From an uncultured Eubacteriales bacterium (GTDB lineage Bacteria > Actinomycetota > Coriobacteriia > Anaerosomatales > JAAXUF01): DNA of 64,000 nucleotides. Made by a program: the position numbers and the translations under genes. Below, piece by piece: positions 15,873-62,432 of this stretch; position 1 is the stretch's first letter; the number at the start of each line of letters is the position of its first letter. The stretch lies in contig CAZIPN010000001.1 in assembly GCA_964541225.1 (NCBI GenBank), positions 39,863-103,862 on the forward strand. Direction: 5' to 3'. The notes under the pieces were generated by a model. That model ran no database searches. It saw nothing but the letters and a program-made list of their open reading frames with translations, and was not told where the DNA came from.

Positions 15873-16529
15873 TCATACCCCTGCCATGCTTTCGGTGCGC
15901 GACAAGTAGTACAGCGTATGCAGCAATTCCCGCACCGGATCCGTGTTGTGCAGCGCAACGCCCTCAGGCACGCGGACGAACGCCGTGGAATAGTTCACGA
16001 TCACTCGCACACCCGCTCGGCACAGCCGATCGACAACACGCTGCGCCTCCGACGCTGGCACCGTGATGACGCCGAATTGAACGCCCTGCTCGGCCACCAC
16101 GGACTCAATCTCGTCAACGTCGCGCACAACAAGATCAGCGACTGGCAGGCCGACCTTGCCCGGATCGCTGTCAAAGAGCCCGGACACCACAAAACCTCGC
16201 GTACGCAGACCGTCATAACGTGCAAGCGCCAACCCAAGATTCCCCGCGCCCACAATCGCAATGCATTGCGCACGATCTGAACCAAGAATGTGCTGGAGAT
16301 GGTCGGCGAGCGAGACGATTCCGTAGCCGACGCCACGCGTCCCAAAGTGCCCGAAATACGCAAGGTCACGCCGGATCTGAGCCGCATTGACTTCGGTCAG
16401 CTCGGACAAGCGCGCGGACGAAACCGTCTGACGTCCCTCAGCCTGCAAATGGAGCAATGCATTCAGGTAGGATGGCAGCCGTTCGATCACGCCTGAGGGA
16501 ACGCTGTGCGTCGCTCGAACAGTTGGCAT
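15873..16529 (-). CDS. rex: Redox-sensing transcriptional repressor Rex
   Basis: Winged-helix N-terminus (RLPSYLNALLHL...SSARLSE...QIRRDLAYFG.FGTRGVGY) plus a Rossmann domain (IAIVGAGNLGLALA). ATG 16529 has GAGGAG upstream. Confidence 0.9.
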   Translation of the reverse strand: MPTVRATHSVPSGVIERLPSYLNALLHLQAEGRQTVSSARLSELTEVNAAQIRRDLAYFGHFGTRGVGYGIVSLADHLQHILGSDRAQCIAIVGAGNLGLALARYDGLRTRGFVVSGLFDSDPGKVGLPVADLVVRDVDEIESVVAEQGVQFGVITVPASEAQRVVDRLCRAGVRVIVNYSTAFVRVPEGVALHNTDPVRELLHTLYYLSRTESMAGV

Positions 16530-16569: not shown

Positions 16570-16587
16570 TCGTAACAACTGTTACAA
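16570..16587 (-). promoter_or_regulatory. Rex-type operator candidate upstream of rex (gene-strand sequence TTGTAACAGTTGTTACGA)
   Basis: A 6-N4-6 palindrome GTAAC(A)-N4-GTTAC lies 41-58 nt upstream of the rex ATG. It shares architecture and outer TTGT...ACAA bases with the known Rex box TTGTGAA-N4-TTCACAA. Two more copies are at 47509 and 55840. Confidence 0.55.
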
Positions 16588-42098: not shown

Positions 42099-42183
42099 TC
42101 ACTGGCTCCTTTGTGTGGGCGCTCGCTGAGCCTCGGCATCAAGACGACTTAGCTCCTCGAGCACCGCCAAGTCTCAACGGTGC

Positions 42184-42213: not shown

Positions 42214-42265
42214 CCGTTGACCCCCGAAGCCACGGCAGATGCGGCTCCGATGGGCTCACATGGTC

Positions 42266-43723: not shown

Positions 43724-43739
43724 CTTCACCTCCTAATGG

Positions 43740-45791: not shown

Positions 45792-45813
45792 CTACTTGTC
45801 CCTCCTTCCACTA

Positions 45814-47202: not shown

Positions 47203-47289
47203 ACTCTTTCCTCCTTCACCAGATTAGACGTTGACGGAACTGGCAGATAAAGGGTTTCGGCCCCTGACGAAGATTCGGCGAATGAAAAA

Positions 47290-47333
47290 CCACCTCCCTT
47301 CAGTCCGCTCGTCAGAGGAACCGGAGGAGGTGG
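47290..47333 (-). promoter_or_regulatory. Terminator-like stem-loop followed by U5 inside the long hydrogenase 5' leader (possible attenuator)
   Basis: On the gene strand the sequence is CCACCTCC-(28 nt)-GGAGGTGG-TTTTTC. It lies about 90-130 nt upstream of the small-subunit ATG and downstream of the predicted promoter at 47532-47560. Confidence 0.35.
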
Positions 47334-47508
47334 CTCGCAAACGCGCCCCGCAAGAGTGATCAAAATCCCGCACGCCCCAGAGGCAGAACAACCAGCAGCG
47401 GCGATGGGATGTCGACCAAGCGGGCCTTCGTGCCGGCTCCAACCCGGTGGTCAAGACTGCTGTCTTGTACCTCTTCCTAGTAGATGCGTGCGACGCTCAC
47501 AGGCACGT

Positions 47509-47526
47509 ATGTAACAGATGTTACAA
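47509..47526 (-). promoter_or_regulatory. Rex-type operator candidate in the hydrogenase promoter (gene strand TTGTAACATCTGTTACAT)
   Basis: Perfect TGTAAC-N4-GTTACA palindrome, 5 nt downstream of the predicted -10. Confidence 0.55.
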
Positions 47527-47531
47527 CGTGT

Positions 47532-47560
47532 ACCTTAGTACCCCCACAACGCGTCGTCAA
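47532..47560 (-). promoter_or_regulatory. Predicted sigma-70-type promoter of the hydrogenase operon (TTGACG-17 nt-TAAGGT)
   Basis: On the gene strand, TTGACG is at 47560-47555 and TAAGGT at 47537-47532. This is a by-eye match only. Confidence 0.4.
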
Positions 47561-47667
47561 GCCTCTACTTGAGCTACGTCAAGTCGACGATTTGGCGCGG
47601 ACTTCTCGCACGCCAATCTGTCTTCACAAACGCCGAATGACCACCCACCGCAGCCGGACCATATCGC

Positions 47668-47696
47668 CTGCCGAGGACAACCCTTCCCCTCGGCAG
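47668..47696 (-). terminator. Hairpin after the NHL gene (end of the cytochrome operon)
   Basis: CTGCCGAGG-11 nt-CCTCGGCAG, a 9-bp stem about 85 nt after the stop at 47779. Confidence 0.5.
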
Positions 47697-47778
47697 AAGA
47701 CGCTCGCGCGCACTCGCGCACACCGTCCGTATGTCACCGACCGGTCTAGCCATCGGAGTCGTCTCCGACCCGATCGGT

Positions 47779-49296
47779 TCAGCTGTCGGCGTCGGGCTCC
47801 GACCCTTCGGCAGATGCTCGCTTCTCAAACCTGTTCAAGAACTCAACCCTGTTGACGACGTCAACCTGAAGCACTTTGGCCAGACGGCGATACTCGGCGT
47901 CTTCGGTGCACAGGACGGGCAGTCGCTTCGCGATCGACAAGATGATGGCAGTCGGCAGGTCGATCTCCATCTTCTCCATCAGGTCCCTGACGTCGGACTC
48001 CGAGTACGGTGTCGCCTCAAGTACCCTCGCGAGATCGACCTCTCCCTGCGTGATCTCCTTGAGGCGCTCATAGTCTTCCTCGGTCACGAACCACTTGCGG
48101 CGGTCGTGCACGAGGAGATCGAGTTCCTCGGCAGTCTCAAGCGCATGAATGAAGTCCGCTGTCGCGAAGAACTTCTTGCGCCGCAGGAACAGAAGGAGCG
48201 GAAGCAGGAGCAGTGGCAGGATGCACAGCCACCAGTTGCCACCCAGATGCGGCAGTGGAACCGGCGAGAGCTGCTCGGGCCACCCCCACACTTGGATTCG
48301 GCCGTTTGAAGTGTCGGCTATGAAGATCTTATTGTTCGAGGCGACGGAGCACCCGTTCGGATAGCTGAACTGGCCGTCAAGAATGCCCTCTTCGCCGAAG
48401 CTGACGATCTTGTCCCCCTTGGCAGACCAGATTGTTGCATCGTGAGAAAGCGTGTCGATGATCACGAAACGCTCCGGGCTGGTGGCCTTGTCTCCCGGGA
48501 AGGGATTCAGGAAGTCAATGCCGCGAGGAAGACCCTGTGTCACGATGATCTTCTTGAAGTTGCCATCCTTGTCAAAGACCTGCACACGACGGTTATTGCT
48601 GTCGGCGATGTAGACGAGCCCCTTGTGGTAGACGATGCCGTTGGGAAATTGGAACAGCCCCGGCATCTTGCCCGCATCGTTGACGATTCCCACGTTGCCC
48701 ACGGACTTCTTGAACGTGCCATCCGGCCCAAAGATCAGCAGTCTGTGCCCATTCAGTATCTCCGTGACATAGAGCGTCCCGTCCGGGGCAAACGCTAGAG
48801 CGACAGGAGCCCACTGGACGCCGTTTGTCTTGAACTTCGGCAGCTGGTTCTTGGGCAGATTCGGATTGAAGTCGCCGAGATACTTGCCGTTGAGATTGAA
48901 CCGCATGATCTTGCGCAGTCGGCGGTCTGTGACATAGAGCTCGTTGTTCACAGGATCGCGCGCGATGTTGAGCGGGATCACGGTCTGAGAGGCGCCGAAG
49001 CTCTTCTGGAAATTGCCCGCCTGGTCAAAGACGAGAATTCGGCGCCCTGCGGAGTCGCATGTGTACACCGTGTTGCCATCGACGTAGACGCCGATGGGCC
49101 GTTGGAGTTTGACCGTGCTGCCCGCAAACGAGTACAGAAACTGCGGCGGCTGAATGACGTCCGGAGAGTTCGACGCAAGCAGATTGAACTTGAGCTGGTG
49201 TGTTGCCTTGTAATAGGTGAAGTACGTGCCTATCAAGGCAAGCAGAACGACCAGGACCGCGATGACCGCGACCTTTCGTTTCTGTGAAGTGGTCAA
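47779..49296 (-). CDS. NHL-repeat beta-propeller protein flanked by two TM helices, with a C-terminal cytoplasmic domain of unknown function
   Basis: The N-terminal TM is VAVIAVLVVLLALIGTYF. Six NHL-like blades follow (P.G.....G..YV.D..N.R...F). The second TM is WWLCILPLLLLPLLLFL, then about 140 aa. The TTG start has GGAGG 5 nt upstream. Confidence 0.8.
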   Translation of the reverse strand: MTTSQKRKVAVIAVLVVLLALIGTYFTYYKATHQLKFNLLASNSPDVIQPPQFLYSFAGSTVKLQRPIGVYVDGNTVYTCDSAGRRILVFDQAGNFQKSFGASQTVIPLNIARDPVNNELYVTDRRLRKIMRFNLNGKYLGDFNPNLPKNQLPKFKTNGVQWAPVALAFAPDGTLYVTEILNGHRLLIFGPDGTFKKSVGNVGIVNDAGKMPGLFQFPNGIVYHKGLVYIADSNNRRVQVFDKDGNFKKIIVTQGLPRGIDFLNPFPGDKATSPERFVIIDTLSHDATIWSAKGDKIVSFGEEGILDGQFSYPNGCSVASNNKIFIADTSNGRIQVWGWPEQLSPVPLPHLGGNWWLCILPLLLLPLLLFLRRKKFFATADFIHALETAEELDLLVHDRRKWFVTEEDYERLKEITQGEVDLARVLEATPYSESDVRDLMEKMEIDLPTAIILSIAKRLPVLCTEDAEYRRLAKVLQVDVVNRVEFLNRFEKRASAEGSEPDADS

Positions 49297-49386
49297 CGTT
49301 GCCTCCGGAGGTGGCCGAACAAGTCGTCGCTCGGTGATGCAATCATGGTTGAACCGTCATCTTCCTTGGATCATCTCAGCCAGCTG

Positions 49387-50496
49387 CTACTTCGCCTTGG
49401 CTTTCTTCGCGGCACGACGCGCGGCGTCGTTCTTCGCTTTGGTCAGAACCGCAACCTGTTTCGTCAGTGCCGAGATCTGGGCCTGGACCTCGGCATCTTT
49501 GGGGTTGAGCTTGGCCGCCTGCTGGAACACGTCGAGCGCGTCTTTGGGATTGCCGCGCTTCACAAGGATTTGACCGTGCAGCTTCGCGGCCTCGAAGCTC
49601 TTGTCGTCCAGGTTGCGAGCAACCAAGACGTCAGTGAGTGCTCCTTCGATTTCACCGGAAGCAAGGGCCTTCTTCGCCTTGTCGATCCACTCAGAAGCCG
49701 ACCCGTAGGCGTCAAGCGCTTGCCTGGGCGGATCCGAGCCGGGTGCGAGCTTCACGGCCTGCGCAAACTGGTACGACGCGTTGACGTCGTCCTTCTTCTG
49801 TTGGTACAGCTGCCCCAGGAAATAGCGAGCCTCCGCGAAGCCAGGATCAAACTGCAACCCTATCTCCAACTGATGGATCGCATCGTCGGTGGCGCCAAGC
49901 CCTTGCAGTGCCTTGGCAAGTTGGTAGTACGAGTCTGATGAATCGCGACGCAGCTGCAAGGCCGCTTTGAAGTTGGCCGCCGCTTCGGAGTAGTTCTTGT
50001 CCCCCAAGGCCAGAACCCCGAGATTGTAGAAAGCCTGCTCGCGCACGGAGCTCAGGCCGGCATACTCCGAACCATCGGTCACGGAAATGACCTTCTGAAA
50101 GTACGTCTTGGCCGACGAGTTGTTCTTGGTCAGCATCGCGACCATTCCGAGATCGAGGTACGCACCCGAGTGATTCGGGTTGATCTTCAGAGCCGCATTG
50201 AACTGCTCGATCGCCTGCTGGTACTTGCCGAGCGCCCCGTAGGCTTCTCCCAGGCGCACCCGCAGCACGACGTCATTTGGGGACTTGCGCACCTGGCTTT
50301 CCAGCGCGGCAGCGATTCTGCCCGAAGCACTGCTGGCCTCTTGCGCCTGGCGATCGCGGTAGACGCTGTACGCGAAGACCATAGCCACGCCCAAGACGAG
50401 AACCACGAGTACTGCGACGGCGATGTTCAGCCATCGGTCCACTCGAGCTGGTTGTGGGACGTCAAGAGAGGCGGTCTCAGAGCCGGAATGAGTCAT
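49387..50496 (-). CDS. Membrane-anchored TPR-repeat protein with a Lys/Ala-rich C-terminal tail
   Basis: TM helix WLNIAVAVLVVLVLGVAMVFAY, then about 7 TPR units (e.g. LGEAYGALGKYQQAIEQFNAALKINPNHSGAYLDLGMV). The start is ATG 50496 or 50565. Confidence 0.75.
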   Translation of the reverse strand: MTHSGSETASLDVPQPARVDRWLNIAVAVLVVLVLGVAMVFAYSVYRDRQAQEASSASGRIAAALESQVRKSPNDVVLRVRLGEAYGALGKYQQAIEQFNAALKINPNHSGAYLDLGMVAMLTKNNSSAKTYFQKVISVTDGSEYAGLSSVREQAFYNLGVLALGDKNYSEAAANFKAALQLRRDSSDSYYQLAKALQGLGATDDAIHQLEIGLQFDPGFAEARYFLGQLYQQKKDDVNASYQFAQAVKLAPGSDPPRQALDAYGSASEWIDKAKKALASGEIEGALTDVLVARNLDDKSFEAAKLHGQILVKRGNPKDALDVFQQAAKLNPKDAEVQAQISALTKQVAVLTKAKNDAARRAAKKAKAK

Positions 50497-50701
50497 TCGA
50501 TGCCTTACCTCTACGTATTCCTTGAGGCGCCGAGACCCGCTCGAGACCTCAACGGGGGCGGCCAAACCAGATGCACGCTATCCATGCGCTCGGTCCGTGT
50601 CAACGGGACACCCTGGGGCGAATCACTGCCGCTGCACCTGAACGCACGAGCGAATGCCGTGCCTCCGGTTCTCACATGGCGGTCGTCAATGAGCCGTCGC
50701 A

Positions 50702-52324
50702 TCAGATTCCTAGGTTCTTGTGACATCGGAGGCACAGCTCCGCACCACGATAGGGGGCAATGGTGTTGTTCAGGGGGTCAACCGCCCCGTGACACTGGTA
50801 GCACAATCGCAGGTCATGCCCTTGCTGAAGCTCGAGTTTGCGCGCCGCTGCGCTCGTACCGAAAGACACATGGCAGTCAAAACAGTGATAGGGCCGCCCC
50901 TTCTTCTTCGCCACATTGAAGTGGACGGCATGTTCGGCGATCCCCTTGTCCTGAATGGATGTTGGTGGCTGCTGTGCCGCCTCGGGGTGGCAACCCACGC
51001 AACTCGAAGCCACGAGCTCTGCATTGGCCACCTTCTGGTGGTGGCAGTTCTGGCACGTCTGCCGGTCCGTATGACAGATGTTGCAGTCGGCGCTGCTAAC
51101 ACCCGGCTCGGGCTTGTGGTTCTCGATCCAGTTGGCCGGATGCGGCATGGTCGTCTTGTGACACCGCCGACAGGAAGCGTCGTCGTGGCACGCGCCGCAA
51201 TCCCCTTTCTTGGCGATGAAGAGCTTGCCATGCTGAGCCTGCCAATCTCCCTTCTGATGTGACTTCGGGACCACCGGCTGCTTGGGCGCGCCCGGACTCT
51301 TGCTCTTGCCTTGGTGACATTGCACGCAGAACTGAGTCTTGTGGCACATCGAGCAGTACGATGGGTCGCTGCCAGCCCTGTCCTTGTGACCGCTCGCAAT
51401 GAATCGCGCTGTGTGGTTGTTCGGTGTCAGCTTGAACCCGGGCGGATGGCACTTGTTGCACTCAGCCGTGGCGACTAGTCCCTGACTCTGGTGCTGCAGC
51501 CCATGGCAGCGATAGCACGACTGCATGTCTGGCTTGACGGGCCCGCTCGCGGTGTGACCGAACGTGGGATGGCACGTCTCGCAGGCGTAGTCGCGCTGCA
51601 GGTGCACTGCGTGTGCGAAGATCAGCCGCCCAGGCACGATGTTGTCGAGATCCGGATGACAGTACTGACATTGCGCCATGTTGGTCGGTCCACTTGGATA
51701 GATCTTGACCGACGCGGGCTGCGGACGCTGGGCAACAACCGAGACGTACGCGTCAGCCAAAGCGGCGATCTTGACGCCCTTCTTCGCGTGACAGTCGTTG
51801 CAATCCTTGCTTGCCGTGTGGCACATCATGCATTGGTTCACGCCGCCACGACGCGCCAGCTCCGCGTGCGCTTTCCCGCTGAAAGACTTCGCAGGTTGAT
51901 GGTCGGCTGGCACGAGATCGAACGACGGCGTATGACACTTGTCGCACTCGGCAGTCGCGAGCGGACCTTGGGGTCCGTGACTCACCCCGTGGCACGCGAA
52001 GCACACTTCCATCGGCACCGAGTCCGTCGCTCCGTTCTGGTGGGGTATCCGCGAGTGGCACCCATCGCACGAAATCAGAAGGTGATTGCCGTGGTTGAAC
52101 ATCAACCCCGGCTTCTTCACCGTTCCTAGGTCAAGATGGCACGGTGTGCACTGTGACGAGTCGGTGACTGGCGCCCCAGTGTCGATGACGGGGCCCGCCG
52201 ACGTTGCCGAGCCGCTGTCTGCGGCCAGAGTCCCCGTGGCCGAAACAAGCACGAAGGTCACCGCCGCAAGCGCCACGGCGACTGCAATCACCCTCCTGCT
52301 CAGTTGTCCACTTCCACGACTCAC
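50702..52324 (-). CDS. Multiheme c-type cytochrome with 20 CxxCH motifs
   Basis: 20 CxxCH were counted in the translation. There is an N-terminal anchor or signal (VIAVAVALAAVTFVLV). I trimmed the start to GTG 52324, 20 nt after the upstream stop; the tracked ORF overlaps the upstream gene by 113 nt. Confidence 0.85.
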   Translation of the reverse strand: MSRGSGQLSRRVIAVAVALAAVTFVLVSATGTLAADSGSATSAGPVIDTGAPVTDSSQCTPCHLDLGTVKKPGLMFNHGNHLLISCDGCHSRIPHQNGATDSVPMEVCFACHGVSHGPQGPLATAECDKCHTPSFDLVPADHQPAKSFSGKAHAELARRGGVNQCMMCHTASKDCNDCHAKKGVKIAALADAYVSVVAQRPQPASVKIYPSGPTNMAQCQYCHPDLDNIVPGRLIFAHAVHLQRDYACETCHPTFGHTASGPVKPDMQSCYRCHGLQHQSQGLVATAECNKCHPPGFKLTPNNHTARFIASGHKDRAGSDPSYCSMCHKTQFCVQCHQGKSKSPGAPKQPVVPKSHQKGDWQAQHGKLFIAKKGDCGACHDDASCRRCHKTTMPHPANWIENHKPEPGVSSADCNICHTDRQTCQNCHHQKVANAELVASSCVGCHPEAAQQPPTSIQDKGIAEHAVHFNVAKKKGRPYHCFDCHVSFGTSAAARKLELQQGHDLRLCYQCHGAVDPLNNTIAPYRGAELCLRCHKNLGI

Positions 52325-52343
52325 GCCAGCAGAACTCCTGTTC

Positions 52344-53672
52344 CTAAAGCCCGAGGGCTCCCTTGATCGTGGCGATCTGCCGGATCGCCCAGTTCTCCTC
52401 CTGGGCCTCCGGCTTGCGATGAATGAGTTGCTTGGCTTGGCTGGCGAATTCCTCACTCGAGCCCTTGTGACAGCCAGGCTGACCGCACGTGTTGCCCAAG
52501 TTGGCTGGATTCACCGTCGATTTGGGATCCTGGTGCGCCAAGGACAGGTGCGAGCCGTGGCACTGCCAGCACGCTGGGGCGTCCGGCGCACCATCCTTGT
52601 AGGGCTGCCCATGGTAGTAGTCGTCGAAGGAGTTGTATTTGTCGAGGTGGCAGCGAGCGCACACCCGATAGGCATCGGCGTGCATTCTCGCCTTGCCGTC
52701 AGCGGTGTCGAGCGAGTAAATGAAATGCCCCCCGTGGCACGAACCACACGTGGCCGCGTTGTAGTCACCGCTTCGTATCTTCTGCGCGTGAGTCGATCCC
52801 TCGTAGTCGGCAACCGGCTGCGACAGCTTCCTGTCCTTGAGACTCTGGTGGCACGTGGCGCACTGAAGCCCGGCGTTCACGTTCCAGAGCTTGGTCGCTG
52901 CAGGAATCGAGTCGTATCGAAAGTCCGGGTGACACTGCTGGCACGTGATCTGGTAGTGAACCGACTCGTCAACCCCGGTGACCTGAAACGACTGGTCCGT
53001 GCCTCCCACGGGGGCGATCAGAGTCGAGTCCCCATGGCACGCATAGCAACCCGATCTCGCGTCCGGCTCGCCTGGATCGTAGGACCACCCGGACGCAGGC
53101 GTCCACGAGACCTTCGCACGCTCATGACACGTGGTGCAATCGGACTGCTGATGGCACATCATGCAGTCCTTGGTGACGTCGCTTCTCGCCTGTCCGGCGT
53201 GGCCGCGCCCTGCCCAGTCGGCAGTCCCCCCGTAGGGACACGATAGTTGCGCCTTGGGGGTGTTGTGGCATGCGCCACAGTCCGACTTCGCGATCACTCC
53301 CTGGGGTCCGTGATGCAGCCCATGGCAGTTCATGCACACCTTCATGGTGGGGCGCTGCGTTCCGCTCTTCTGATGCGGAAACTTCGTGTGGCAGTCGCTG
53401 CACTGCATCTTCACGTGGTAGCCGTGGGAGAACTTGATGTCGATCGCGAAGCTTGGGGCGGGATCGTAGTTCGCGTGGCACTTCGCGCACACGTCCTCTT
53501 CCACCTGCATGTTCTGGAGCTGGTCAAGCTGATTGAGAATGTCGGCCACCGGAATTCGGGGGCCGCTCGACTCCTCTGCCAGCGCGGGTGTTGCACTGAA
53601 CACGATCCCCGCCAGCATTGCGGCAACTACTGCCACCGCAAGAAGCCATGGAAACCTCAATCGAGCGTACAT
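52344..53672 (-). CDS. Multiheme c-type cytochrome with 12 CxxCH plus 1 CxxxxCH
   Basis: Signal peptide MYARLRFPWLLAVAVVAAMLAGIVFSATPALA. 12 canonical motifs, plus CGQPGCH at the position where the paralog upstream has CSQCH. Confidence 0.85.
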   Translation of the reverse strand: MYARLRFPWLLAVAVVAAMLAGIVFSATPALAEESSGPRIPVADILNQLDQLQNMQVEEDVCAKCHANYDPAPSFAIDIKFSHGYHVKMQCSDCHTKFPHQKSGTQRPTMKVCMNCHGLHHGPQGVIAKSDCGACHNTPKAQLSCPYGGTADWAGRGHAGQARSDVTKDCMMCHQQSDCTTCHERAKVSWTPASGWSYDPGEPDARSGCYACHGDSTLIAPVGGTDQSFQVTGVDESVHYQITCQQCHPDFRYDSIPAATKLWNVNAGLQCATCHQSLKDRKLSQPVADYEGSTHAQKIRSGDYNAATCGSCHGGHFIYSLDTADGKARMHADAYRVCARCHLDKYNSFDDYYHGQPYKDGAPDAPACWQCHGSHLSLAHQDPKSTVNPANLGNTCGQPGCHKGSSEEFASQAKQLIHRKPEAQEENWAIRQIATIKGALGL

Positions 53673-53718
53673 CGTGCGCTTGCCCTTCCTTCCGCCAGCA
53701 TCACAGACGAAGTCGGCC

Positions 53719-54792
53719 CTACGATCCGCCTATGCGGAATGCCGACAAGACACCACGAAACGCTCCCTGGATGGCGGCCGTGGCCGTGTCGACTGCCGAG
53801 ACAATCGGATTCTGCTGATAGAGAGCCTTCTGTGAGTGGATCAGCTGAGCGTATTGCACGAATCCCTGCCCCGCGTCCTTGTGGCACTGCGAACACGTTG
53901 CGACGAGATTCTCGGAGCTGGTCATTGAGTCGCGGTTGCTCGAGGGCAAGACGAGATGCGCGTTGTGACACTGCCAACAGGCGGGCGCGTCCGGCGCCCC
54001 GCGCTGGTAGGCTGCCCCGTGGTAGTAGTCGCTGTAATCCGCAGACGCCCGAGCGTGGCACTTTCCGCACATCGTCATCGCCGAGGCGCGCAGAGCCTCG
54101 CGGCCCGCTGCATCATTCTTCGCAGGAATGGAATGTCCCTGGTGGCAGTCCCCGCACACAGGCTTCGGCTTGCCGGGCGCAGACGAGTTCGCCGAACCAG
54201 CAGTTGCAGAAGCGCTTGTACTTCCAACGGTGGAATGGACGCTCCGTGCCCACTCCTGGAACTCGGCCGTGTGACAGCTCTTACACGAGCTCTTCGCGAT
54301 GGCCCGCCAATTCTGACCATCCGTCGCGTTGGCATGGGGGGTCTTGTACGTGAAGTCAACATGACAGTCCGTGCACAGCAGCTTCGCGTGCGCCGACCCC
54401 TGAAGAGCAAGCGTGTTGACGTACATGCTCACGACTTTCCCGCCGATGACCCTCACAAGGTTCCTGTTGCCGTGGCACACAAGACATCCGGACTTGCCGG
54501 CGCTTCCGATGCTCCAGTCCAGGCTGTATGCGGCGCGTGCGCTCTTCGATCCGGGAGTGACGGGTGTGGTGTACACCCCGCTCTCGTTCACGCCGGGGGG
54601 AACGTAGGTCGGGGCAACTAGGCCAAACGTGTTGTGTTTGGGAACCGTCGGCGTCTGTGACGCACTCTGAGCGAGCGCGGGATTCGGCGTGTAGACGGGT
54701 GCTTCCGGATATTGGAACGCCGCGAACGCAGGACTCGGCAACAGAAGAACCACCAAGAGCGAGAGCGTTGCGAGTATGTCGCGGACGAACAT
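53719..54792 (-). CDS. Multiheme c-type cytochrome with 7 CxxCH
   Basis: Signal peptide MFVRDILATLSLLVVLLLPSPAFA. The seven motifs are CLVCH, CTDCH, CKSCH, CGDCH, CGKCH, CWQCH and CSQCH. The C-terminal half is paralogous to the 12-heme protein (SDYYHGAAYQRGAPDAPACWQCHNAH). Confidence 0.85.
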   Translation of the reverse strand: MFVRDILATLSLLVVLLLPSPAFAAFQYPEAPVYTPNPALAQSASQTPTVPKHNTFGLVAPTYVPPGVNESGVYTTPVTPGSKSARAAYSLDWSIGSAGKSGCLVCHGNRNLVRVIGGKVVSMYVNTLALQGSAHAKLLCTDCHVDFTYKTPHANATDGQNWRAIAKSSCKSCHTAEFQEWARSVHSTVGSTSASATAGSANSSAPGKPKPVCGDCHQGHSIPAKNDAAGREALRASAMTMCGKCHARASADYSDYYHGAAYQRGAPDAPACWQCHNAHLVLPSSNRDSMTSSENLVATCSQCHKDAGQGFVQYAQLIHSQKALYQQNPIVSAVDTATAAIQGAFRGVLSAFRIGGS

Positions 54793-54820
54793 GCGGAGTT
54801 CTCTCTCGTATCGTGCGCTG

Positions 54821-55726
54821 CTAGACGTGTTCCGGCTCATCGAAGATTGGCGTGTCCTCGTGGCCATGCTCAAGATCGTGTGGGGTGCCCGAGTGGTGCT
54901 CGGCACCAGTGAGACCAAAGAAGTCCTGGAAGGCTGGGAAGTCCTCGCTCAGCGCAAGATAGACGTGCACGGTCGTCAAGATGATGAACAGCCAGCAGAT
55001 CACGTAGTGCGCGGTACGTGCGTACCAGCCGGCAAGATCGGTTGATCCGACTATCCCGCCAAGCCACCAGCCGAGAAGGAGATCTCGAGGCGTCACCCCG
55101 GAATGCCCAAAGGTCGTGATGGCGCCGGTAAACGGGATCGTGTACGTCAGCAGTGCCAGTCCGGTGAACGCCTGTAGCACAAGCAGTGGAACGAACGTCG
55201 TGTACGTCATCTTCTGCATGACGTTGTACTTGCCGAAATGTGGCTTCTTCTCAGGGGGGATCAGGAAGAGGTAGTAGGCAATGACCTTAGGGGCGGTGGT
55301 GATGTCGCGACGCGTGATCGCGAACTCCTTGTAGTCACGCCGCTTGGACCCAAAGGCGTACCACAGCCGAACGATCAGGTTGATGATGACAATGACCATC
55401 GCGACGTAGTGGACCCAGCGCATACCCCAACGCGCGTACGGACCCTTCACAAACGGAAGCAGCCCAGGAAACCTGATGTACATGCCCGAAACCACCAGTG
55501 CGATCATGGCTGCAACATGCTGAAAGTGAAGGAGCTTGGGGGTTGCCGGGATCGGACCGCCCTCGTGATGCGGCCATTCCTTCTTGATGAAGCGGCGTTT
55601 CGCTCGGCCGCTTATGACGTTGCCGATGAGATGCAGCAGCAGACCGACAACCAAACAGGCGTACAACGCCGTGAATATGACGTCGAACCACACATTCAGT
55701 TGGGTCATCAGCACGGCCGCCGGCAC
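54821..55726 (-). CDS. Integral membrane cytochrome b-type subunit (FdnI/HydC Ni_hydr_CYTB-like), putative quinol-interacting subunit
   Basis: About 5 TM helices with conserved His in TM segments (LHLIGN, LHFQHVAAM, WVHYVAMV, HYVICW). It is the first gene of the cytochrome operon. GTG 55726 has AGGAG 7 nt upstream. Confidence 0.65.
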   Translation of the reverse strand: MPAAVLMTQLNVWFDVIFTALYACLVVGLLLHLIGNVISGRAKRRFIKKEWPHHEGGPIPATPKLLHFQHVAAMIALVVSGMYIRFPGLLPFVKGPYARWGMRWVHYVAMVIVIINLIVRLWYAFGSKRRDYKEFAITRRDITTAPKVIAYYLFLIPPEKKPHFGKYNVMQKMTYTTFVPLLVLQAFTGLALLTYTIPFTGAITTFGHSGVTPRDLLLGWWLGGIVGSTDLAGWYARTAHYVICWLFIILTTVHVYLALSEDFPAFQDFFGLTGAEHHSGTPHDLEHGHEDTPIFDEPEHV

Positions 55727-55839
55727 CCCCTTACTCCTGGGTTGCTAGACCAATTCGAGGAAAGGCTGGTCTCGCGGGACGGCAAGCCTGACCTGGAAGC
55801 CCGCATCCATGCCGGTGGCGTGCGGCACCGTCCGCGCGT

Positions 55840-55857
55840 TTGTAACAGTAGTTACAG
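55840..55857 (-). promoter_or_regulatory. Rex-type operator candidate in the cyt b/multiheme operon promoter (gene strand CTGTAACTACTGTTACAA)
   Basis: TGTAAC-N4-GTTACA palindrome, 5 nt downstream of the predicted -10 and 114-131 nt upstream of the GTG start. Confidence 0.55.
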
Positions 55858-55862
55858 ACACC

Positions 55863-55892
55863 AGTCTACGGAGCGCCAGGGCGCAGTGTCAA
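55863..55892 (-). promoter_or_regulatory. Predicted promoter of the cyt b/multiheme operon (TTGACA-18 nt-TAGACT)
   Basis: On the gene strand, TTGACA is at 55892-55887 and TAGACT at 55868-55863. By eye only. Confidence 0.4.
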
Positions 55893-55906
55893 CGAGGCAC
55901 GATCGC

Positions 55907-56812
55907 TCACCGCGCCGAGTTCCGGCTACCGTACTCGGACACATGCTCGACGAACGCGGTTGCGGCACTCGTCGGCGTGCCCTTCGGGAGAACGGCAAAG
56001 AGCGGCCGCTGGACAGGCATCCCTTCCACGCGCATCTCGGCAACCGTTCCCAGCGCCAGTGCTTTCTCGGCGACGAAGCGCGACACCATCGCGACGCCGA
56101 GCCCACCCTCAACCGCGCACACCACGGCCTCGCCGGTGCCGAGCCGAGCGAGCATCCGCAGCTCCTGCGGATCGACGCCGTGGGCAAGCAGCGTATGCTC
56201 GGCAACGCGACCGGTTCCCGACCCAAGTTCCCTTGCGACCCAATCGACGTCGGCCAGCTCGGCAAAGGTGACGTGCTTGGCCGAGGCAAGCGGCCCGTCC
56301 GGAGGACAGATCGCAACGATCTCATCGCGCGCAACTTCCTCAAACAACGCCTTCGCGCTGTTGTCGGCGATTCCGGACAGCCCCACGTCGGCCGTTCCCT
56401 CTTCCACACACCTGATGACTTGCTCGCTGTCGTTGACAGCGAGGGCCACCCGCACCTCAGGATACTTCGTGAGAAAGCCGCCGAGCACCCGGGGCACGAT
56501 GTAGTCCCCGGGAGTCGTGCTGGCGGAAATGGCTAGACGCCCAGTCACCTTGCCTGAGAGCGAGGCGATCTCATGCCGAGCTTCCTCAACGCCGTCGAGC
56601 AGGCTTCTGGCATGTAGAACCAGCGCTGAGCCCGCTTCGGTCAAGTCCACGCCTCGGTATCGACGGTCCAGAAGTGTCACTCCGATGTCGGCTTCAAGGG
56701 CTTGCATCTGCATCGTCACAGCCGGTTGAGAGATGCCAAGCGTGCGCGCTGCCTCGGAGAAGGAGCCCTTGTCGACCACGGTCACAAACGTACGCAGTTG
56801 CGAGAAATTCAT
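55907..56812 (-). CDS. LysR-family transcriptional regulator
   Basis: MNFSQLRTFVTVVDKGSFSEAARTLGISQPAVTMQMQALE plus a substrate-binding domain. Trimmed to ATG 56812. Confidence 0.9.
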   Translation of the reverse strand: MNFSQLRTFVTVVDKGSFSEAARTLGISQPAVTMQMQALEADIGVTLLDRRYRGVDLTEAGSALVLHARSLLDGVEEARHEIASLSGKVTGRLAISASTTPGDYIVPRVLGGFLTKYPEVRVALAVNDSEQVIRCVEEGTADVGLSGIADNSAKALFEEVARDEIVAICPPDGPLASAKHVTFAELADVDWVARELGSGTGRVAEHTLLAHGVDPQELRMLARLGTGEAVVCAVEGGLGVAMVSRFVAEKALALGTVAEMRVEGMPVQRPLFAVLPKGTPTSAATAFVEHVSEYGSRNSAR

Positions 56813-57002
56813 CTTGATCGCGTCCCTTCTTGAGAGCGGCCTCCGGTGTCCATCAATCCGCAAGGCTTCTCTCGCATGACCCTGTCTCCCCAATCACTGC
56901 CCACACGTAGGGCCATGATCGGTCCAATGATAGAGCACCGGGCCACGCCCAGAGCATGGTGTGCCCGTCGCACCGGCGCTCGCTCTCTTGCGACGCAACA
57001 GC

Positions 57003-58211
57003 CTAGCGATTCGGCGGCGCCTTCTCTTTCACGCGCTCGCCGAACCGTGTGCCCCACTCTCTGGCGGCCTGAAGATCCGCCGGCAGCGGGCGATACTTGC
57101 ACGTTAGTTCGTTCTCCGGTAGTTCCATGCCGATCTCCCCGAGCCGAGTTGCCATCTCCTTGGTAGCACCACTCGACCAGCCGTAGCTGCCAAAGACCCC
57201 GGCGATCTTGTCTTTGGGCTTCAATCCATTGATGTACTGCAGGAATCCGGCTACCCGATAGAGCATGCCGCGGTGCAACGCCGGACTGCCGAGAAGTAGC
57301 GCGCGCGAGTCCATGATGTGGCGAGTAACGAGCGCGTAGGACGCTTCGGCAAGATCGAATGTCTTGACATCAACGCCGGTGCTCGAGGCGCCATCGGCAA
57401 TCTCGCGCGCGAGAACATCCGTAGATCCCCACATCGTCGAGTACGCAACGACCAACTTCTCTTCGGTCTCTCCCGCGGTAAGTCGATCGTAGATGTCGAA
57501 CGCAGCCGGAACCGTGTCTCTTCGCCAGATCACTCCGTGGGACGGAGCTATCGTGTCGCACGCCCAACCGAGTTCGACAACCTTCGATGCCGCTTTGGCG
57601 ACTTGCGCAGAGACCGGCATCAGGATGTTGGCGTAGTACGTGACGAGCTCCTCGATGGCGAGGTCAAGCCCAACTTCGTCGGCGAACCGCTCGGAACTCG
57701 CGAGATGCTGCCCCCACGCGTCGTTGGGCATCAGCGTCTGGGACTCGGGGCAGTACGTGAACATCGAGTCCGGCCAGTGAACCATCGGCATGGGCAGGAA
57801 GTGGAGCGTCTTGCCGCCAAGATCGATCACATCGTCGGCGCCGACGGCAGTGACTTCGAGATCGGGACCGTGGTATTCGGCGATTCCGCGAACACCAGCC
57901 GTGGTAGCGACCACTTTCGCCTGCGGGATAGCCTCCATCACGAGGCGTAGCCCACTGTTGTGATCGGGCTCAATGTGGTTCACGACGATGTAGTCGATCG
58001 TATCCAGCGCGGTGACCTGAGCTACGTGTTCGAGCAGTTCAGGAACGAACGGCGTCTTGACGGTGTCGATGAGCGCTGTCTTGTCGGCGCCTTGCACAAG
58101 ATAGGCGTTGTACGTCGTGCCATTCGGAGTCTCGAAGCCGTGGAAGTCGCGCAAGTTCCAGTCGACAGCTCCAACCCAGTTGATGCCGTCGGAAACGGGG
58201 GTAGCAGGCAT
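57003..58211 (-). CDS. Flavodiiron protein (FprA-type O2/NO reductase): metallo-beta-lactamase-like plus flavodoxin domains
   Basis: The diiron motif VNHIEPDHNSG is followed by a flavodoxin-like C-terminal half (VVAYSTMWGSTDVLA...). Confidence 0.85.
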   Translation of the reverse strand: MPATPVSDGINWVGAVDWNLRDFHGFETPNGTTYNAYLVQGADKTALIDTVKTPFVPELLEHVAQVTALDTIDYIVVNHIEPDHNSGLRLVMEAIPQAKVVATTAGVRGIAEYHGPDLEVTAVGADDVIDLGGKTLHFLPMPMVHWPDSMFTYCPESQTLMPNDAWGQHLASSERFADEVGLDLAIEELVTYYANILMPVSAQVAKAASKVVELGWACDTIAPSHGVIWRRDTVPAAFDIYDRLTAGETEEKLVVAYSTMWGSTDVLAREIADGASSTGVDVKTFDLAEASYALVTRHIMDSRALLLGSPALHRGMLYRVAGFLQYINGLKPKDKIAGVFGSYGWSSGATKEMATRLGEIGMELPENELTCKYRPLPADLQAAREWGTRFGERVKEKAPPNR

Positions 58212-58307
58212 GCGCCCTCCTCGGAAGCGTCCCGGTGGTCACAGCATACCCAATTGGTGGCCGAGGAGACCGGCCGGCAAGACGGCTCCGGAAGCGTCGA
58301 TTTGTGG

Positions 58308-59315
58308 CTAGGAATTCCTCTTCACGAAGAAGTCCGCCATGGAGGCAAGAAGATCTCGCGCTTTCGTGGGTGGAAGCTCCAATTCCAGCGCCTCTTTCGC
58401 GTCCATGACGAGCCTCTCCGCGAAGCTGCTGGCAAACTCCAGCGAACCGGCCTCGCGCATGATCTCGACGGCTTCATCAAGCACGGCTCGATCGCGCTCC
58501 GTCGCCGAGAGGATCGCAAGCAACCGCTCGCGTCTCGGCGAATGCGCCAAGGCGTGCACTGCCACCAGCGTCCGCTTGCCTTCCGTGATGTCGCTTCGGA
58601 AGTCCTTCTTCGTTGCCTCGCGAGTGCCGACCAGGTTGAGGACGTCATCTTGTATTTGAAACGCCAACCCACTTGCGAGCCCAAATGCCCGCAACGTCGC
58701 CGTCTGCGTCTCCGATCCATTGCCGATAATGGATCCGATCGCGAGCGGCACAGCGCCCGAGTAGTAGGCAGTCTTGTGGTTGGCCATGGCCAGGTAGTCC
58801 TCGACCGTGAGATCAAAACGATCGTCACGCGCCCATCCAATGTCGAGCGCCTGCCCTTCGATCGTGCGCGTCGTCATGTCCACCAGCTCCTTGAGGACAC
58901 GCAACTTCATCGCATCTTCGAGACCTGGGTCCTCAACCACCGTGCCGGTGACGAGCGACAATGCCAGGTCACCGGCGTTGATCGCCAATCCCAGGCCCTC
59001 GCGCACATGGAGGCAGGCCTTTCCTCGGCGAGTCTGCGACGCATCTTCGATGTCGTCATGGATGAGGGCCGCCGTATGGAAGTGCTCGATGGCGGCGGCC
59101 GCAGCGCGTGCCTTCTCCGGCGAACCGCCCACGGCCTCGCACGCGAGCATACATATGAGGGGGCGATGGCGCTTGCCAGCGTTGGACGTGTATTCCGAGA
59201 GAGGCCCGTACAAGTACCGGTTCATGTCACTGTGAGTTCCATCAGTGAAGAACGTTGCAAGGTAGTCGTCGAACTTCTTGGAGTTGCGCTTGAGATAGAG
59301 CTCGAAGCCGATCAT
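58308..59315 (-). CDS. Polyprenyl (geranylgeranyl) diphosphate synthase
   Basis: The first Asp-rich motif is LIHDDIEDAS and the second FQIQDDVLNL. The tracked 453-aa ORF was trimmed to ATG 59315. Confidence 0.85.
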   Translation of the reverse strand: MIGFELYLKRNSKKFDDYLATFFTDGTHSDMNRYLYGPLSEYTSNAGKRHRPLICMLACEAVGGSPEKARAAAAAIEHFHTAALIHDDIEDASQTRRGKACLHVREGLGLAINAGDLALSLVTGTVVEDPGLEDAMKLRVLKELVDMTTRTIEGQALDIGWARDDRFDLTVEDYLAMANHKTAYYSGAVPLAIGSIIGNGSETQTATLRAFGLASGLAFQIQDDVLNLVGTREATKKDFRSDITEGKRTLVAVHALAHSPRRERLLAILSATERDRAVLDEAVEIMREAGSLEFASSFAERLVMDAKEALELELPPTKARDLLASMADFFVKRNS

Positions 59316-62335: not shown

Positions 62336-62432
62336 TGGCGGAGGCGTGTGCGAATCGAACACACCCGGGACGCTCTTCACGCCCCACGCTGGTTTTGAAG
62401 ACCAGGGGCACCACCAGGAACCGTCCGCCTCC
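62336..62432 (-). tRNA. selC: tRNA-Sec (selC), anticodon UCA
   Basis: The reverse complement is GGAGGCGGACGGTTCCTGGTGGTGCCCCTGGTCTTCAAAACCAGCGTGGGGCGTGAAGAGCGTCCCGGGTGTGTTCGATTCGCACACGCCTCCGCCA (97 nt). It has anticodon loop CTTCAAA, a 6-bp D-stem with a 4-nt loop, a long variable arm (6-bp stem), a 5-bp T-stem and a 7-8-bp acceptor stem. It closely parallels my recollection of E. coli selC. Confidence 0.9.

What the first reader, a model, noticed from the sequence alone, without database searches (positions are those of the whole stretch)
55840..55892. Same operator and same spacing in the promoter of the cyt b/multiheme cytochrome operon
The gene strand reads TTGACA-18 nt-TAGACT-ggtgt-CTGTAACTACTGTTACAA. 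The distance from the -10 box to the palindrome (5 nt) is identical to the hydrogenase promoter. This argues for a shared, functional regulatory module, not a chance match. A LysR regulator gene sits immediately upstream (55907-56812) on the same strand and may add a second layer of control.
Basis: partly seen in the sequence, partly recalled or inferred. Interest (0 to 1): 0.55.

Follow-up and report, generated by a model that had tools for sequence, protein, structure and literature searches.

The report
Rex redox-repressor operator, lineage-specific variant
The palindrome just after the promoter of the cytochrome b/multihaem cytochrome operon is most likely the binding site of the NADH-sensing repressor Rex, in a variant form typical of this group of uncultured Coriobacteriia, so it ties the cell's electron-export and hydrogen-oxidising machinery to its internal redox state.

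Summary
On the minus strand, TTGACA-18 nt-TAGACT-ggtgt-CTGTAACTACTGTTACAA lies at 55892-55840. Only three such boxes occur in the 64 kb, all in promoters: the cyt b/multihaem operon, the [NiFe]-hydrogenase operon, and the rex gene itself (15873-16529).

The box is strongly conserved:
- It occurs upstream of 44 of 80 orthologous cyt b operons, against 1 hit in 797 kb elsewhere.
- It occurs upstream of 9 of 9 hydrogenase orthologues.
- It occurs upstream of 58 of 64 rex orthologues, against 0 hits in 291 kb elsewhere.

I read it as a lineage-specific Rex operator, TTGTAAC-N4-GTTACAA. The classical form is TTGTGAA-N4-TTCACAA. The positions that differ are the bases contacted by Lys49 in the Thermotoga Rex-DNA structure, and that residue is invariantly Arg in this clade. 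The box overlaps the transcription start, or the -10 element at rex, which implies repression relieved by NADH.

The "identical 5-nt spacing" is not conserved, since cyt b orthologues mostly have 2 nt. The LysR neighbour is unrelated to the box.

The main rival is a CRP/FNR regulator of the HcpR2 type, whose published consensus is GTAACnnnnGTTAC. I rate this a new variant of a known kind, of moderate interest. In passing, I found conserved leader hairpins and a terminator-like hairpin in the hydrogenase leader.

The parts
55887..55892 (-). -35 hexamer TTGACA of the cyt b operon promoter
   Evidence: Sequence and promoter scan. TTGACA or TTGACT is conserved at the same place in about 38 orthologous promoters.
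55863..55868 (-). -10 hexamer TAGACT, 18 nt after the -35
   Evidence: Orthologues carry TAGTAT, TATCCT, TATTCT or TAGACT.
55840..55857 (.). 18-bp Rex-type operator. It reads CTGTAACTACTGTTACAA on the gene strand and TTGTAACAGTAGTTACAG on the + strand. It starts 5 nt after the -10, so it covers the predicted transcription start.
   Evidence: PWM score is 29.1. It is conserved in 44 of 80 orthologous upstream regions, against 1 hit in 797.5 kb elsewhere.
55798..55827 (-). Leader hairpin gccgcacgcca-CCGGCAT-ggatgcgggc, about 12 nt after the operator. It is a candidate RNA element of unknown function.
   Evidence: A stem of variable sequence with a CCGG(C/A/T)(A/C) loop sits at the equivalent place in 47 of 80 orthologous leaders. 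67.8% of cells pair in register against 35-50% when slid, and covariation is 0.494 against 0.13-0.28. A covariance model was not discriminating.
54821..55726 (-). First gene of the operon: a membrane cytochrome b (Ni_hydr_CYTB / cytochrome b561 family), GTG start preceded by AGGAG
   Evidence: Pfam PF01292, E 2.8e-17. 437 homologues, mostly from Coriobacteriia MAGs.
53719..54918 (-). Multihaem cytochrome c 1. These are ORF limits; the real start is probably the ATG near 54792.
   Evidence: Pfam Cytochrome_C7, c3_2 and MtrC/MtrF domains. It follows cyt b in about 60 orthologous loci.
52344..53672 (-). Multihaem cytochrome c 2
   Evidence: Pfam; synteny.
50702..52456 (-). Multihaem cytochrome c 3 (ORF limits)
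   Evidence: Pfam; synteny.
49387..50565 (-). TPR protein with a weak CcmH/CycH-like TPR match, the last conserved gene of the operon
   Evidence: Pfam; synteny.
47509..47526 (.). Second operator copy, in the [NiFe]-hydrogenase promoter. The gene strand reads TTGTAACATCTGTTACAT, 5 nt after TAAGGT.
   Evidence: It is conserved in 9 of 9 hydS upstream regions at -276 to -337.
16570..16587 (.). Third operator copy, in the rex promoter. The gene strand reads TTGTAACAGTTGTTACGA. It fills the spacer between TTGTTT and TACGAT and overlaps the -10.
   Evidence: An exact GTAAC-N4/5-GTTAC core lies upstream of rex in 58 of 64 related loci and nowhere else in 291 kb.
15873..16529 (-). rex gene, encoding the redox-sensing repressor proposed to bind the three operators
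   Evidence: Pfam Put_DNA-bind_N + CoA_binding. E 2e-45 to Thermotoga Rex 5ZZ5 and 1e-41 to T. aquaticus Rex. The recognition helix NAAQIRRDLAYFG is invariant in the clade.
55907..56812 (-). LysR-family regulator gene, a neighbour only. It is not shown to belong to the module.
   Evidence: Pfam. It is adjacent in only about 20 of 80 loci, and box presence is independent of it.

Best explanation
The 18-bp palindrome at 55840-55857 is an operator for the redox-sensing repressor Rex, which is encoded at 15873-16529. It has a lineage-specific form, TTGTAAC-N4-GTTACAA.

Proposed mechanism. When the NADH/NAD+ ratio is low, the Rex dimer sits on the box. The box begins 5 nt after the -10 hexamer and so covers the transcription start, which blocks initiation or promoter escape of the operon (cyt b, three multihaem cytochromes, TPR protein). 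When NADH rises, NADH binding closes the Rex dimer, Rex leaves the DNA and the operon is expressed. The same repressor controls the neighbouring [NiFe]-hydrogenase operon and its own gene, so the three promoters form one small regulon.

What is shown:
- the sequence and the promoter layout;
- the conservation at three sets of orthologous promoters;
- the presence of an intact Rex with conserved NAD(H)-binding and DNA-contact residues.

What is inferred:
- that Rex is the binder;
- that it represses;
- that NADH is the signal;
- that the Lys-to-Arg change in the recognition helix explains the altered half-site.
For: (1) The geometry is that of a Rex box: 7-4-7 with TTGT...ACAA ends. The general consensus is TTGTGAANNNNTTCACAA (quoted in PMC6391272). 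A family-specific variant is already known in Clostridiaceae, TTGTTAANNNNTTAACAA (PMC8457756).

(2) A bona fide rex gene is in the window, and the best-scoring box in the window is in its promoter.

(3) Autoregulation is conserved. An exact GTAAC-N4-GTTAC core lies upstream of rex in 46 of 64 related loci, with an N5 version in 12 more. There are no hits in the other 291 kb of those loci.

(4) The box is conserved in 44 of 80 cyt b promoters, against 1 hit in 797.5 kb elsewhere, and that one hit lies where the hydrogenase promoter is expected. It is present in 9 of 9 hydS promoters.

(5) The position is that of a repressor. The box lies 0-7 nt after a conserved -10 in cyt b and hydS promoters, and inside the spacer and over the -10 in rex promoters.

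(6) Protein and DNA change together. In the Thermotoga Rex-DNA structure, Arg48 reads the G of TTG, which is kept here. Lys49 reads positions 5-6 of the half-site (PMC8836258). In this clade Lys49 is invariantly Arg (QIRRD), and the half-site differs at positions 5 and 7.

(7) The NAD(H) pocket residues are kept (GAGNLG, Asp120, Lys125, Tyr105 by alignment to 5ZZ5).

(8) Rex control of hydrogenases and of its own gene is experimentally established elsewhere (C. bescii, PMC6391272). A Rex gene next to multihaem clusters was noted in Parvivirga (PMC9686372).
Against: There is no binding or expression data, so the assignment rests on comparative genomics.

The site matches only 9 of 14 specified positions of the classical Rex consensus. 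Its core is identical to the published consensus of a different regulator family, HcpR2 of the CRP/FNR family (GTAACnnnnGTTAC; PMC1274295).

All Rex proteins sampled carry Arg at the key position, so the Lys/Arg-to-operator correlation could not be tested within my own data. It relies on literature for the Lys-type proteins.

The box has been lost from the cyt b promoter in one clade that still has rex and the hydrogenase box (L006-L008), so control of this operon is not universal.

Derepression of an uptake-type hydrogenase by high NADH is physiologically not obvious.
Confidence: 0.8

Rival explanations
1. The box is bound by a CRP/FNR-family regulator of the HcpR2 type, encoded elsewhere in the genome, which would control respiratory genes and rex in response to NO, nitrite or anaerobiosis.
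For: The published HcpR2 consensus is GTAACnnnnGTTAC (PMC1274295). This is exactly the invariant core of the box found here (PWM). CRP/FNR regulators commonly control hydrogenases and cytochromes. A flavodiiron (NO/O2-reducing) gene lies nearby at 57003-58211.
Against: No CRP/FNR homologue was found in the 64-kb window or in 1.1 Mb of related loci by tblastn with E. coli CRP and FNR, and the one weak hit turned out to be an L,D-transpeptidase. No hcp gene is associated with a box.

The boxes sit after the -10 or over the -10. That is a repressor position, not the -41.5 or -61.5 position of CRP/FNR activators.

The most conserved location of the box is the promoter of rex itself (58/64).

Conservation extends to a 7-nt half-site, TTGTAAC, as in Rex boxes.
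Confidence: 0.1
2. The box is the site of some other, unidentified dimeric repressor that happens to regulate rex as well.
For: Palindromic 18-bp sites are used by many families, and no experiment ties the site to Rex.
Against: This would require a second regulator whose site has Rex geometry and Rex-like ends, and whose best-conserved target is rex. No candidate gene is conserved next to any of the three promoter sets.
Confidence: 0.07
3. The adjacent LysR-family regulator (55907-56812) binds the palindrome.
For: Physical adjacency in this window and in about 20 of 80 related loci.
Against: The box is present in many loci without a LysR neighbour, and absent in L006-L008 and L012, which have one. 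The same box occurs at the hydrogenase and rex promoters, far from any LysR gene. The dyad gives T-N10-A and T-N14-A, not the T-N11-A typical of LysR sites (read from the sequence). The gene is co-directional, not divergent.
Confidence: 0.02
4. Chance palindrome with no function.
For: None beyond the small size of the element.
Against: Searches show enrichment of more than 1000-fold at orthologous promoters and only three high-scoring sites in 64 kb, all of them in promoters.
Confidence: 0.01

Closest known systems
Rex operator (ROP) and Rex regulon of Gram-positive bacteria and Thermotogales (S. coelicolor, B. subtilis, T. aquaticus/T. maritima, C. bescii)
   Same: It is an 18-bp inverted repeat with a 4-nt centre and TTGT...ACAA ends. 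It is placed over the core promoter. rex is autoregulated. The targets are respiratory and redox genes, including hydrogenases. The Rex protein has a conserved winged helix and NAD(H) pocket.
   Different: The half-site is TTGTAAC instead of TTGTGAA (positions 5 and 7). The base-reading Lys49 (Thermotoga numbering) is Arg, and Lys43, Ser52 and Glu34 are also changed. A subgroup uses a 5-nt centre at its own promoter. The targets include an operon of cytochrome b plus multihaem cytochromes (probable extracellular electron transfer). I found no report of such an operon as a Rex target in the library searched.
Clostridiaceae-specific Rex box TTGTTAANNNNTTAACAA
   Same: It is a precedent that a Rex lineage can shift its operator at a few half-site positions while keeping geometry and function (PMC8457756).
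   Different: Different positions and bases are involved: position 5 G->T there, against position 5 G->A plus position 7 A->C here.
HcpR2 (CRP/FNR family) sites upstream of hcp in Clostridium, Bacteroides, Thermotogales and Treponema
   Same: Identical core consensus, GTAACnnnnGTTAC (PMC1274295).
   Different: Those sites lie upstream of hcp, next to an FNR-like gene, and HcpR2 regulons mostly contain only hcp. Here there is no hcp and no FNR-like gene nearby, the sites are in repressor positions, and the main conserved target is rex.

Membership tests
Rex operator / Rex regulon | 18-bp inverted repeat, 7-nt arms around a 4-nt centre, with TTGT...ACAA ends | tested here: met
   In the PWM from 76 distinct sites, G3 T4 A5 A6 C7 are each >=96% and T1 is 79%. 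In this particular site the outer base of one arm is C (CTGTAAC).
Rex operator / Rex regulon | Match to the general consensus TTGTGAANNNNTTCACAA | tested here: not met
   The site matches 9 of 14 specified positions, and the lineage consensus differs at positions 5 and 7 of each arm. No classical box occurs in the window: the best candidates have 3 mismatches, in two places. I therefore file it as a variant, as for Clostridiaceae.
Rex operator / Rex regulon | A rex gene (winged-helix N-domain plus Rossmann NAD(H) domain) in the same genome | tested here: met
   The gene at 15873-16529 has PF06971 + PF02629 and gives E 2e-45 to 1e-38 against solved Rex structures.
Rex operator / Rex regulon | The same motif in the promoter of rex itself, conserved across relatives (autoregulation) | tested here: met
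   The window site is at 16570-16587. 58 of 64 related rex loci carry the core upstream, with 0 hits elsewhere in 291 kb.
Rex operator / Rex regulon | Site overlaps the core promoter or transcription start (repressor position) | tested here: met
   This rests on predicted promoters only. The box lies 0-7 nt after a conserved -10 in 38 cyt b promoters, 5 nt after it in most hydS promoters, and over the -10 in rex promoters. No transcription start was mapped.
Rex operator / Rex regulon | Rex binds the site and NADH releases it | not testable with these tools
   This needs EMSA, DAP-seq or genetics. Only conservation of the NAD(H)-pocket residues could be checked.
HcpR2 (CRP/FNR) site | Core GTAACnnnnGTTAC | tested here: met
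HcpR2 (CRP/FNR) site | Located upstream of hcp and/or next to an FNR-like regulator gene | tested here: not met
   No CRP/FNR homologue was found in the window or in the fetched loci by tblastn. Pfam on the one weak hit gives YkuD. The downstream genes are cyt b, hydS and rex. The rest of the genome could not be examined.
HcpR2 (CRP/FNR) site | Activator position (centred near -41.5 or further upstream) | tested here: not met
   The box is downstream of, or over, the -10 in all three promoter sets.
LysR-type regulator binding site | T-N11-A dyad near a divergently transcribed LysR gene, co-occurring with that gene | tested here: not met
   The dyad spacing is T-N10-A and T-N14-A (read from the sequence). 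The LysR gene is co-directional. Box and LysR occur independently across 80 loci.

The most novel reading that the evidence does not exclude
Two linked possibilities remain open.

(a) This Coriobacteriia Rex clade has re-tuned its DNA specificity through a Lys-to-Arg change in the recognition helix, converging on the half-site used by an unrelated CRP/FNR regulator.

(b) The Rex-controlled transcripts carry a second, RNA-level control. A hairpin presenting a CCGGCA loop recurs near the 5' ends of the cyt b, hydrogenase, tatA and (in relatives) rex mRNAs. The hydrogenase leader adds a conserved terminator-like hairpin. Together these would give a two-tier control (initiation plus attenuation) of hydrogen oxidation and extracellular electron transfer by an undescribed riboregulator or RNA-binding protein.
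Probability: 0.3. Interest if true: 0.65.

Novelty: new variant of a known kind. Interest (0 to 1): 0.45.

Why it matters
Anaerosomatales/OPB41-type Coriobacteriia are widespread subsurface hydrogen oxidisers and iron reducers, and almost nothing is known about their gene regulation. A defined Rex operator has four uses.

- It gives a usable search pattern for reconstructing their redox regulon from MAGs.
- It predicts that the conserved island (cyt b, multihaem cytochromes, hydrogenase) is switched by the NADH/NAD+ ratio.
- It offers a natural single-residue test case (Lys49 to Arg) for how Rex reads its half-site.
- It warns that GTAAC-N4-GTTAC sites cannot be assigned automatically to HcpR2-type regulators.

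Tried and rejected
- **LysR as binder:** rejected, because box and LysR occur independently.
- **CRP/FNR gene search:** tblastn with E. coli CRP and FNR found nothing convincing in the window or the loci. The weak hit at 33302-33583 is an L,D-transpeptidase.
- **Classical Rex box search in the window:** only two 3-mismatch hits, consistent with chance.
- **Helix/spacer correlation:** N5 boxes are concentrated in the NPAQIRRDLTHF subgroup (10 of 11), but that subgroup also has 15 N4 boxes, so there is no clean covariation.
- **Rfam:** no family matches in 42000-58500 at E<=1. The whole window contains only two tRNAs.
- **RNAalifold on the ungapped hairpin alignment A3:** predicted nothing, because loop lengths differ.
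- **Covariance model R1 of the cyt b leader hairpin:** no hit better than E about 1, and the hits are scattered. The element is too small to be found this way.
- **Generic CCGG-loop hairpins:** not enriched in the window (21, against 29.7 in shuffles).
- **Promoter/terminator scanner:** it calls neither the hydrogenase promoter nor the leader hairpin.
- **Ravcheev et al. 2012 (the Rex comparative-genomics paper):** could not be retrieved. Its consensus is cited second-hand.
- **Missing data:** one hydS locus returned no DNA.

Full report
**1. The observation**

The minus strand reads cgTTGACActgcgccctggcgctccgTAGACTggtgtCTGTAACTACTGTTACAAacg. The coordinates are:
- TTGACA at 55892-55887;
- an 18-nt spacer;
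- TAGACT at 55868-55863;
- 5 nt (ggtgt);
- the 18-bp palindrome at 55857-55840.

The consensus promoter scan finds this as the only sigma-70-like promoter in 55600-56000 (10/12 matches; none in shuffles). The cytochrome b gene starts 114 nt further on (GTG at 55726, preceded by AGGAG).

The core TGTAAC-N4-GTTACA is exact here and at 47510-47525, and has one mismatch at 16571-16586. That gives four hits with <=2 mismatches, against 0.57 expected. With a weight matrix built from orthologous sites, the window has exactly three high-scoring sites: 33.3 at 16570-16587, 29.1 at 55840-55857 and 22.0 at 47509-47526. The next best is 11.8, inside a gene, and the best in shuffled sequence is 14.9.

**2. 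What surrounds the three sites**

Downstream of 55840, on the minus strand, lie:
- a cytochrome b of the Ni_hydr_CYTB family (54821-55726);
- three multihaem c-type cytochromes (53719-54918, 52344-53672, 50702-52456);
- a TPR protein (49387-50565).

Next comes an NHL-repeat protein (47779-49296). After the second box come the [NiFe]-hydrogenase small and large subunits (45814-47202, 43740-45791) and another multihaem cytochrome (42266-43729).

The third box lies 41 nt upstream of a gene whose product has the Rex N-terminal DNA-binding domain and a Rossmann domain (15873-16529). That product matches solved Rex structures at E 2e-45 to 4e-27. It is the key to the interpretation.

Homologues place the window in uncultured Coriobacteriia of the Anaerosomatales/OPB41 type. 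Cultivated members of this group are hydrogen-oxidising iron or sulfur reducers rich in multihaem cytochromes (PMC9686372).

**3. Conservation at orthologous promoters**

I fetched 80 loci encoding cyt b orthologues (46-69% identity).
- The five-gene operon is conserved in about 60 of them.
- The box (<=2 mismatches to TTGTAACNNNNGTTACAA) occurs in 44 upstream regions, within 30.6 kb searched.
- It occurs once in the remaining 797.5 kb. That single hit (L040:12692) lies after the TPR/NHL genes, where the hydrogenase promoter is expected.
- Anchoring on the box shows a textbook footprint: TTGAC(A/T), 17-18 nt, TA(G/T)nnT, a few nt, then the box.

For the hydrogenase, nine orthologous hydS loci all carry the box at -276 to -337. 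Most have TTGACG-17-TA(A/G)GNT-5 nt-box.

For rex, 80 loci were fetched from metagenomes. Of the 64 with at least 80 nt of upstream sequence:
- 46 carry an exact GTAAC-N4-GTTAC core;
- 12 more carry GTAAC-N5-GTTAC;
- no core of either spacing, nor of N3 or N6, occurs elsewhere in about 291 kb.

The site is therefore functional. It is shared by three promoter families, and its best-conserved location is the promoter of rex.

**4. Who binds it**

The standard comparative-genomics criterion points to Rex: the motif sits in front of the regulator's own gene, and it resembles the family's known motif.

The general Rex consensus is TTGTGAANNNNTTCACAA (Ravcheev et al. 2012, as quoted in PMC6391272). 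A Clostridiaceae-specific variant, TTGTTAANNNNTTAACAA, is established by DAP-seq and EMSA (PMC8457756). The present motif, TTGTAAC-N4-GTTACAA, keeps the geometry and T1, T2, G3, T4 and A6. It changes positions 5 (G to A) and 7 (A to C).

In the Thermotoga maritima Rex-NAD+-DNA structure (PMC8836258):
- Arg48 hydrogen-bonds the G of TTG;
- Lys49 contacts the G at position 5 and the A/T pair at position 6;
- Arg60 and Gly61 of the wing read the two outer T's in the minor groove.

Aligned to that protein, the window's Rex keeps Arg12, Ser33, Gln46, Arg48, Gly58, Arg60, Gly61 and Tyr64. It has Arg in place of Lys49, and also Asn for Lys43, Ala for Ser52 and Ala for Glu34. QIRRD is invariant in 20 aligned relatives and in all 80 fetched loci. 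So the residue that reads the changed bases is itself changed.

This is suggestive, not proof. All my sequences are of the Arg type, so the contrast with Lys-type proteins rests on the literature.

The NAD(H) pocket is conserved (GAGNLG, Asp120, Lys125, Tyr105), so NADH sensing is plausible.

**5. How it most likely works**

In all three promoter sets the box is in a repressor position.
- At cyt b promoters it starts 0-7 nt after the -10, so it spans the start site.
- At hydS promoters it starts 5 nt after the -10.
- At rex promoters it fills the 17-nt spacer, and its right arm overlaps the -10. The layout is TTGnnn-4 nt-TTGTAACnnnnGT[TACGAT]. This also explains why rex boxes end in ACGA rather than ACAA.

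The model is the classical one. Rex occupies the box at a low NADH/NAD+ ratio. NADH closes the dimer and releases it. The cytochrome operon, the hydrogenase and rex are then derepressed together.

Rex repression of hydrogenase operons and of rex itself is experimentally documented in Caldicellulosiruptor bescii (PMC6391272). Binding, repression and the signal are all inferred here.

The physiological logic for the cytochromes is straightforward: more electron-export capacity when reducing equivalents pile up. For a Tat-exported uptake-type hydrogenase the logic is less obvious, and this remains an open point.

**6.

*Spacing.* Among orthologous cyt b promoters with clear -35/-10 elements, the -10-to-box distance is 2 nt in 25, 5 nt in 6 (including the window), and 0, 3, 4 or 7 nt in 7. 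The match with the hydrogenase promoter's 5 nt in this genome is therefore not a conserved feature of the module. In addition, the hydrogenase -10 (TAAGGT) is too weak to be called by the scanner, although it is conserved.

*LysR.* The gene is real, but it is adjacent in only about a quarter of loci. The box occurs without it. In L006-L008 and L012, which have LysR upstream, the promoter is kept but the box is gone. The dyad is also not of the T-N11-A type.

**7. Rivals**

The serious rival is a CRP/FNR regulator of the HcpR2 type, whose published consensus, GTAACnnnnGTTAC (PMC1274295), equals the invariant core here. Against it:
- the boxes are in repressor positions;
- there is no hcp gene and no FNR-like gene in the window or in 1.1 Mb of related loci;
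- conservation extends to a 7-nt arm with TT ends;
- rex is the most conserved target.

I give this rival about 0.1, an unknown repressor 0.07, LysR 0.02 and chance 0.01.

**8. Comparison with the known, and novelty**

The element works like a Rex operator and meets most membership criteria (geometry, a rex gene, autoregulation, promoter overlap). It fails the test of matching the classical consensus, so I file it as a lineage-specific variant, not a standard member.

In the searchable library:
- the string GTAACNNNNGTTAC appears only in the HcpR paper;
- the only paper combining Rex with Coriobacteriia is the Anaerosomatales description, which merely notes a Rex gene beside a multihaem cluster.

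The kind of system is well known. What appears new is the operator variant, the Lys-to-Arg recognition helix, and the operon of cytochrome b plus multihaem cytochromes as a target. Interest is moderate.

**9. Things seen on the way**

*(a) Leader hairpin.* Twelve nt after the box, the cyt b leader forms a hairpin (55827-55798) whose loop reads CCGGCAT. In 47 of 80 orthologous leaders, a stem of different sequence carries a CCGG(C/A/T)(A/C) loop at the same place. In-register pairing is 67.8%, against 35-50% when slid, and the covariation score is 0.494, against 0.13-0.28. The hairpin persists in the loci that lost the Rex box.

*(b) Hydrogenase leader.* This leader of about 305 nt is conserved in nine orthologues. 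It has a hairpin whose apical loop is again CCGGCA, and a strong terminator-like hairpin followed by a U-run about 85 nt before the start codon. Rfam has no match.

*(c) rex-tatA.* rex is followed by tatA in 75 of 80 loci. The intergenic region has a conserved GGTGGTACGCTA and then a hairpin, often with a CCGGCA or CCGGTA loop. Nineteen of 61 rex leaders in relatives also carry a CCGGCA hexaloop hairpin just before the ribosome-binding site.

The hexamer is 3.6- to 8.6-fold enriched in these leaders over the background of the same loci. That comparison is not corrected for relatedness.

A covariance model of the hairpin was not discriminating, and generic CCGG-loop hairpins are not enriched in the window. 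This remains a lead: possibly a shared RNA-level control, and a better candidate for a "second layer" than LysR.

**10. Verdict**

- Observation: confirmed.
- Interpretation: right in its core (a shared, functional Rex-type operator), wrong on spacing and on LysR.
- Best explanation: a variant Rex operator that represses the operon until NADH rises (confidence 0.8).
- Novelty: new variant of a known kind.
- Interest: 0.45.

Noticed in passing
window 47203-47508 (- strand); P1 about 47455-47419; P2 about 47325-47276: The hydrogenase 5' leader (about 305 nt) is conserved in 9 orthologues. It has a hairpin with the nearly invariant loop GGAG-CCGGCA-CGAAG, and a strong hairpin GCCAYCUCC...GGGAGGUGG followed by a U-run about 85 nt before hydS. 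It looks like a transcription attenuator or riboregulator. Rfam has no match.
   Followed up: partly
window 55798-55827 (- strand) and the equivalent positions in L001-L080: A hairpin with a covarying stem and a CCGG(C/A/T)(A/C) loop lies about 12-20 nt after the Rex box in 47 of 80 cyt b leaders. It is also present where the Rex box was lost. Its function is unknown, and a covariance model was too weak to test for recurrence.
   Followed up: partly
window 15570-15796 (tatA, -), 15270-15483 (second Tat-like gene, -), hairpin 15822-15843: rex is followed by tatA in 75 of 80 related loci. The 80-130 nt spacer has a conserved GGTGGTACGCTA (-10-like) and then a hairpin, often with a CCGGCA or CCGGTA loop (cggtcga-CCGGCA-tcgatcg in the window). 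The tatA identity is from reading the translation; Pfam was not run.
   Followed up: partly
L083-L121 (rex leaders), about 24 nt before the rex start: 19 of 61 rex leaders in relatives carry a CCGGCA hexaloop hairpin (for example gaatcgt-CCGGCA-gcgattc) directly before the ribosome-binding site. The window's own rex leader lacks it.
   Followed up: partly
L111, L130, L137, L139, L147, L149, L150, L152, L153, L156, L159 (upstream of rex): A subgroup of rex genes, mostly with the helix NPAQIRRDLTHF, has TTTGTAAC-N5-GTTACCAT. This is the same arms with a 5-nt rather than a 4-nt centre, which is unusual for a dimeric winged-helix repressor.
   Followed up: partly
L006, L007, L008, L012 (upstream of cyt b): This clade keeps the TTGACA-17-TAGTAT promoter and the leader hairpin but has lost the Rex box. 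It also has an extra small coding-like stretch between LysR and cyt b, which resembles DUF3343-type proteins from memory (not tested). The same genome as L008 keeps the box at hydS (L169).
   Followed up: partly
window 35331-50565 and L161-L169: There is a conserved gene island: cyt b, 3 multihaem cytochromes, TPR, an NHL-repeat protein, hydS, hydL and a multihaem cytochrome. In the window this is followed by two unannotated proteins, a DUF5648 protein and a 999-aa multihaem cytochrome with FG-GAP repeats (35331-38330). It is probably one module linking H2 oxidation to an extracellular electron acceptor.
   Followed up: partly
window 62340-62432 (-) and 22455-22528 (-): A selenocysteine tRNA (70.9 bits) and one ordinary tRNA are the only Rfam matches in the window. 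The hydrogenase large subunit ends in DPCLACAIH, so it is a Cys-type and not a Sec-type enzyme.
   Followed up: no
window 57003-58211 (-): A flavodiiron protein (ODP/metallo-beta-lactamase + flavodoxin domains) lies upstream of LysR. FDP-LysR synteny recurs in several related loci (L009, L016, L017), so LysR may belong with that gene and not with the cytochrome operon.
   Followed up: no
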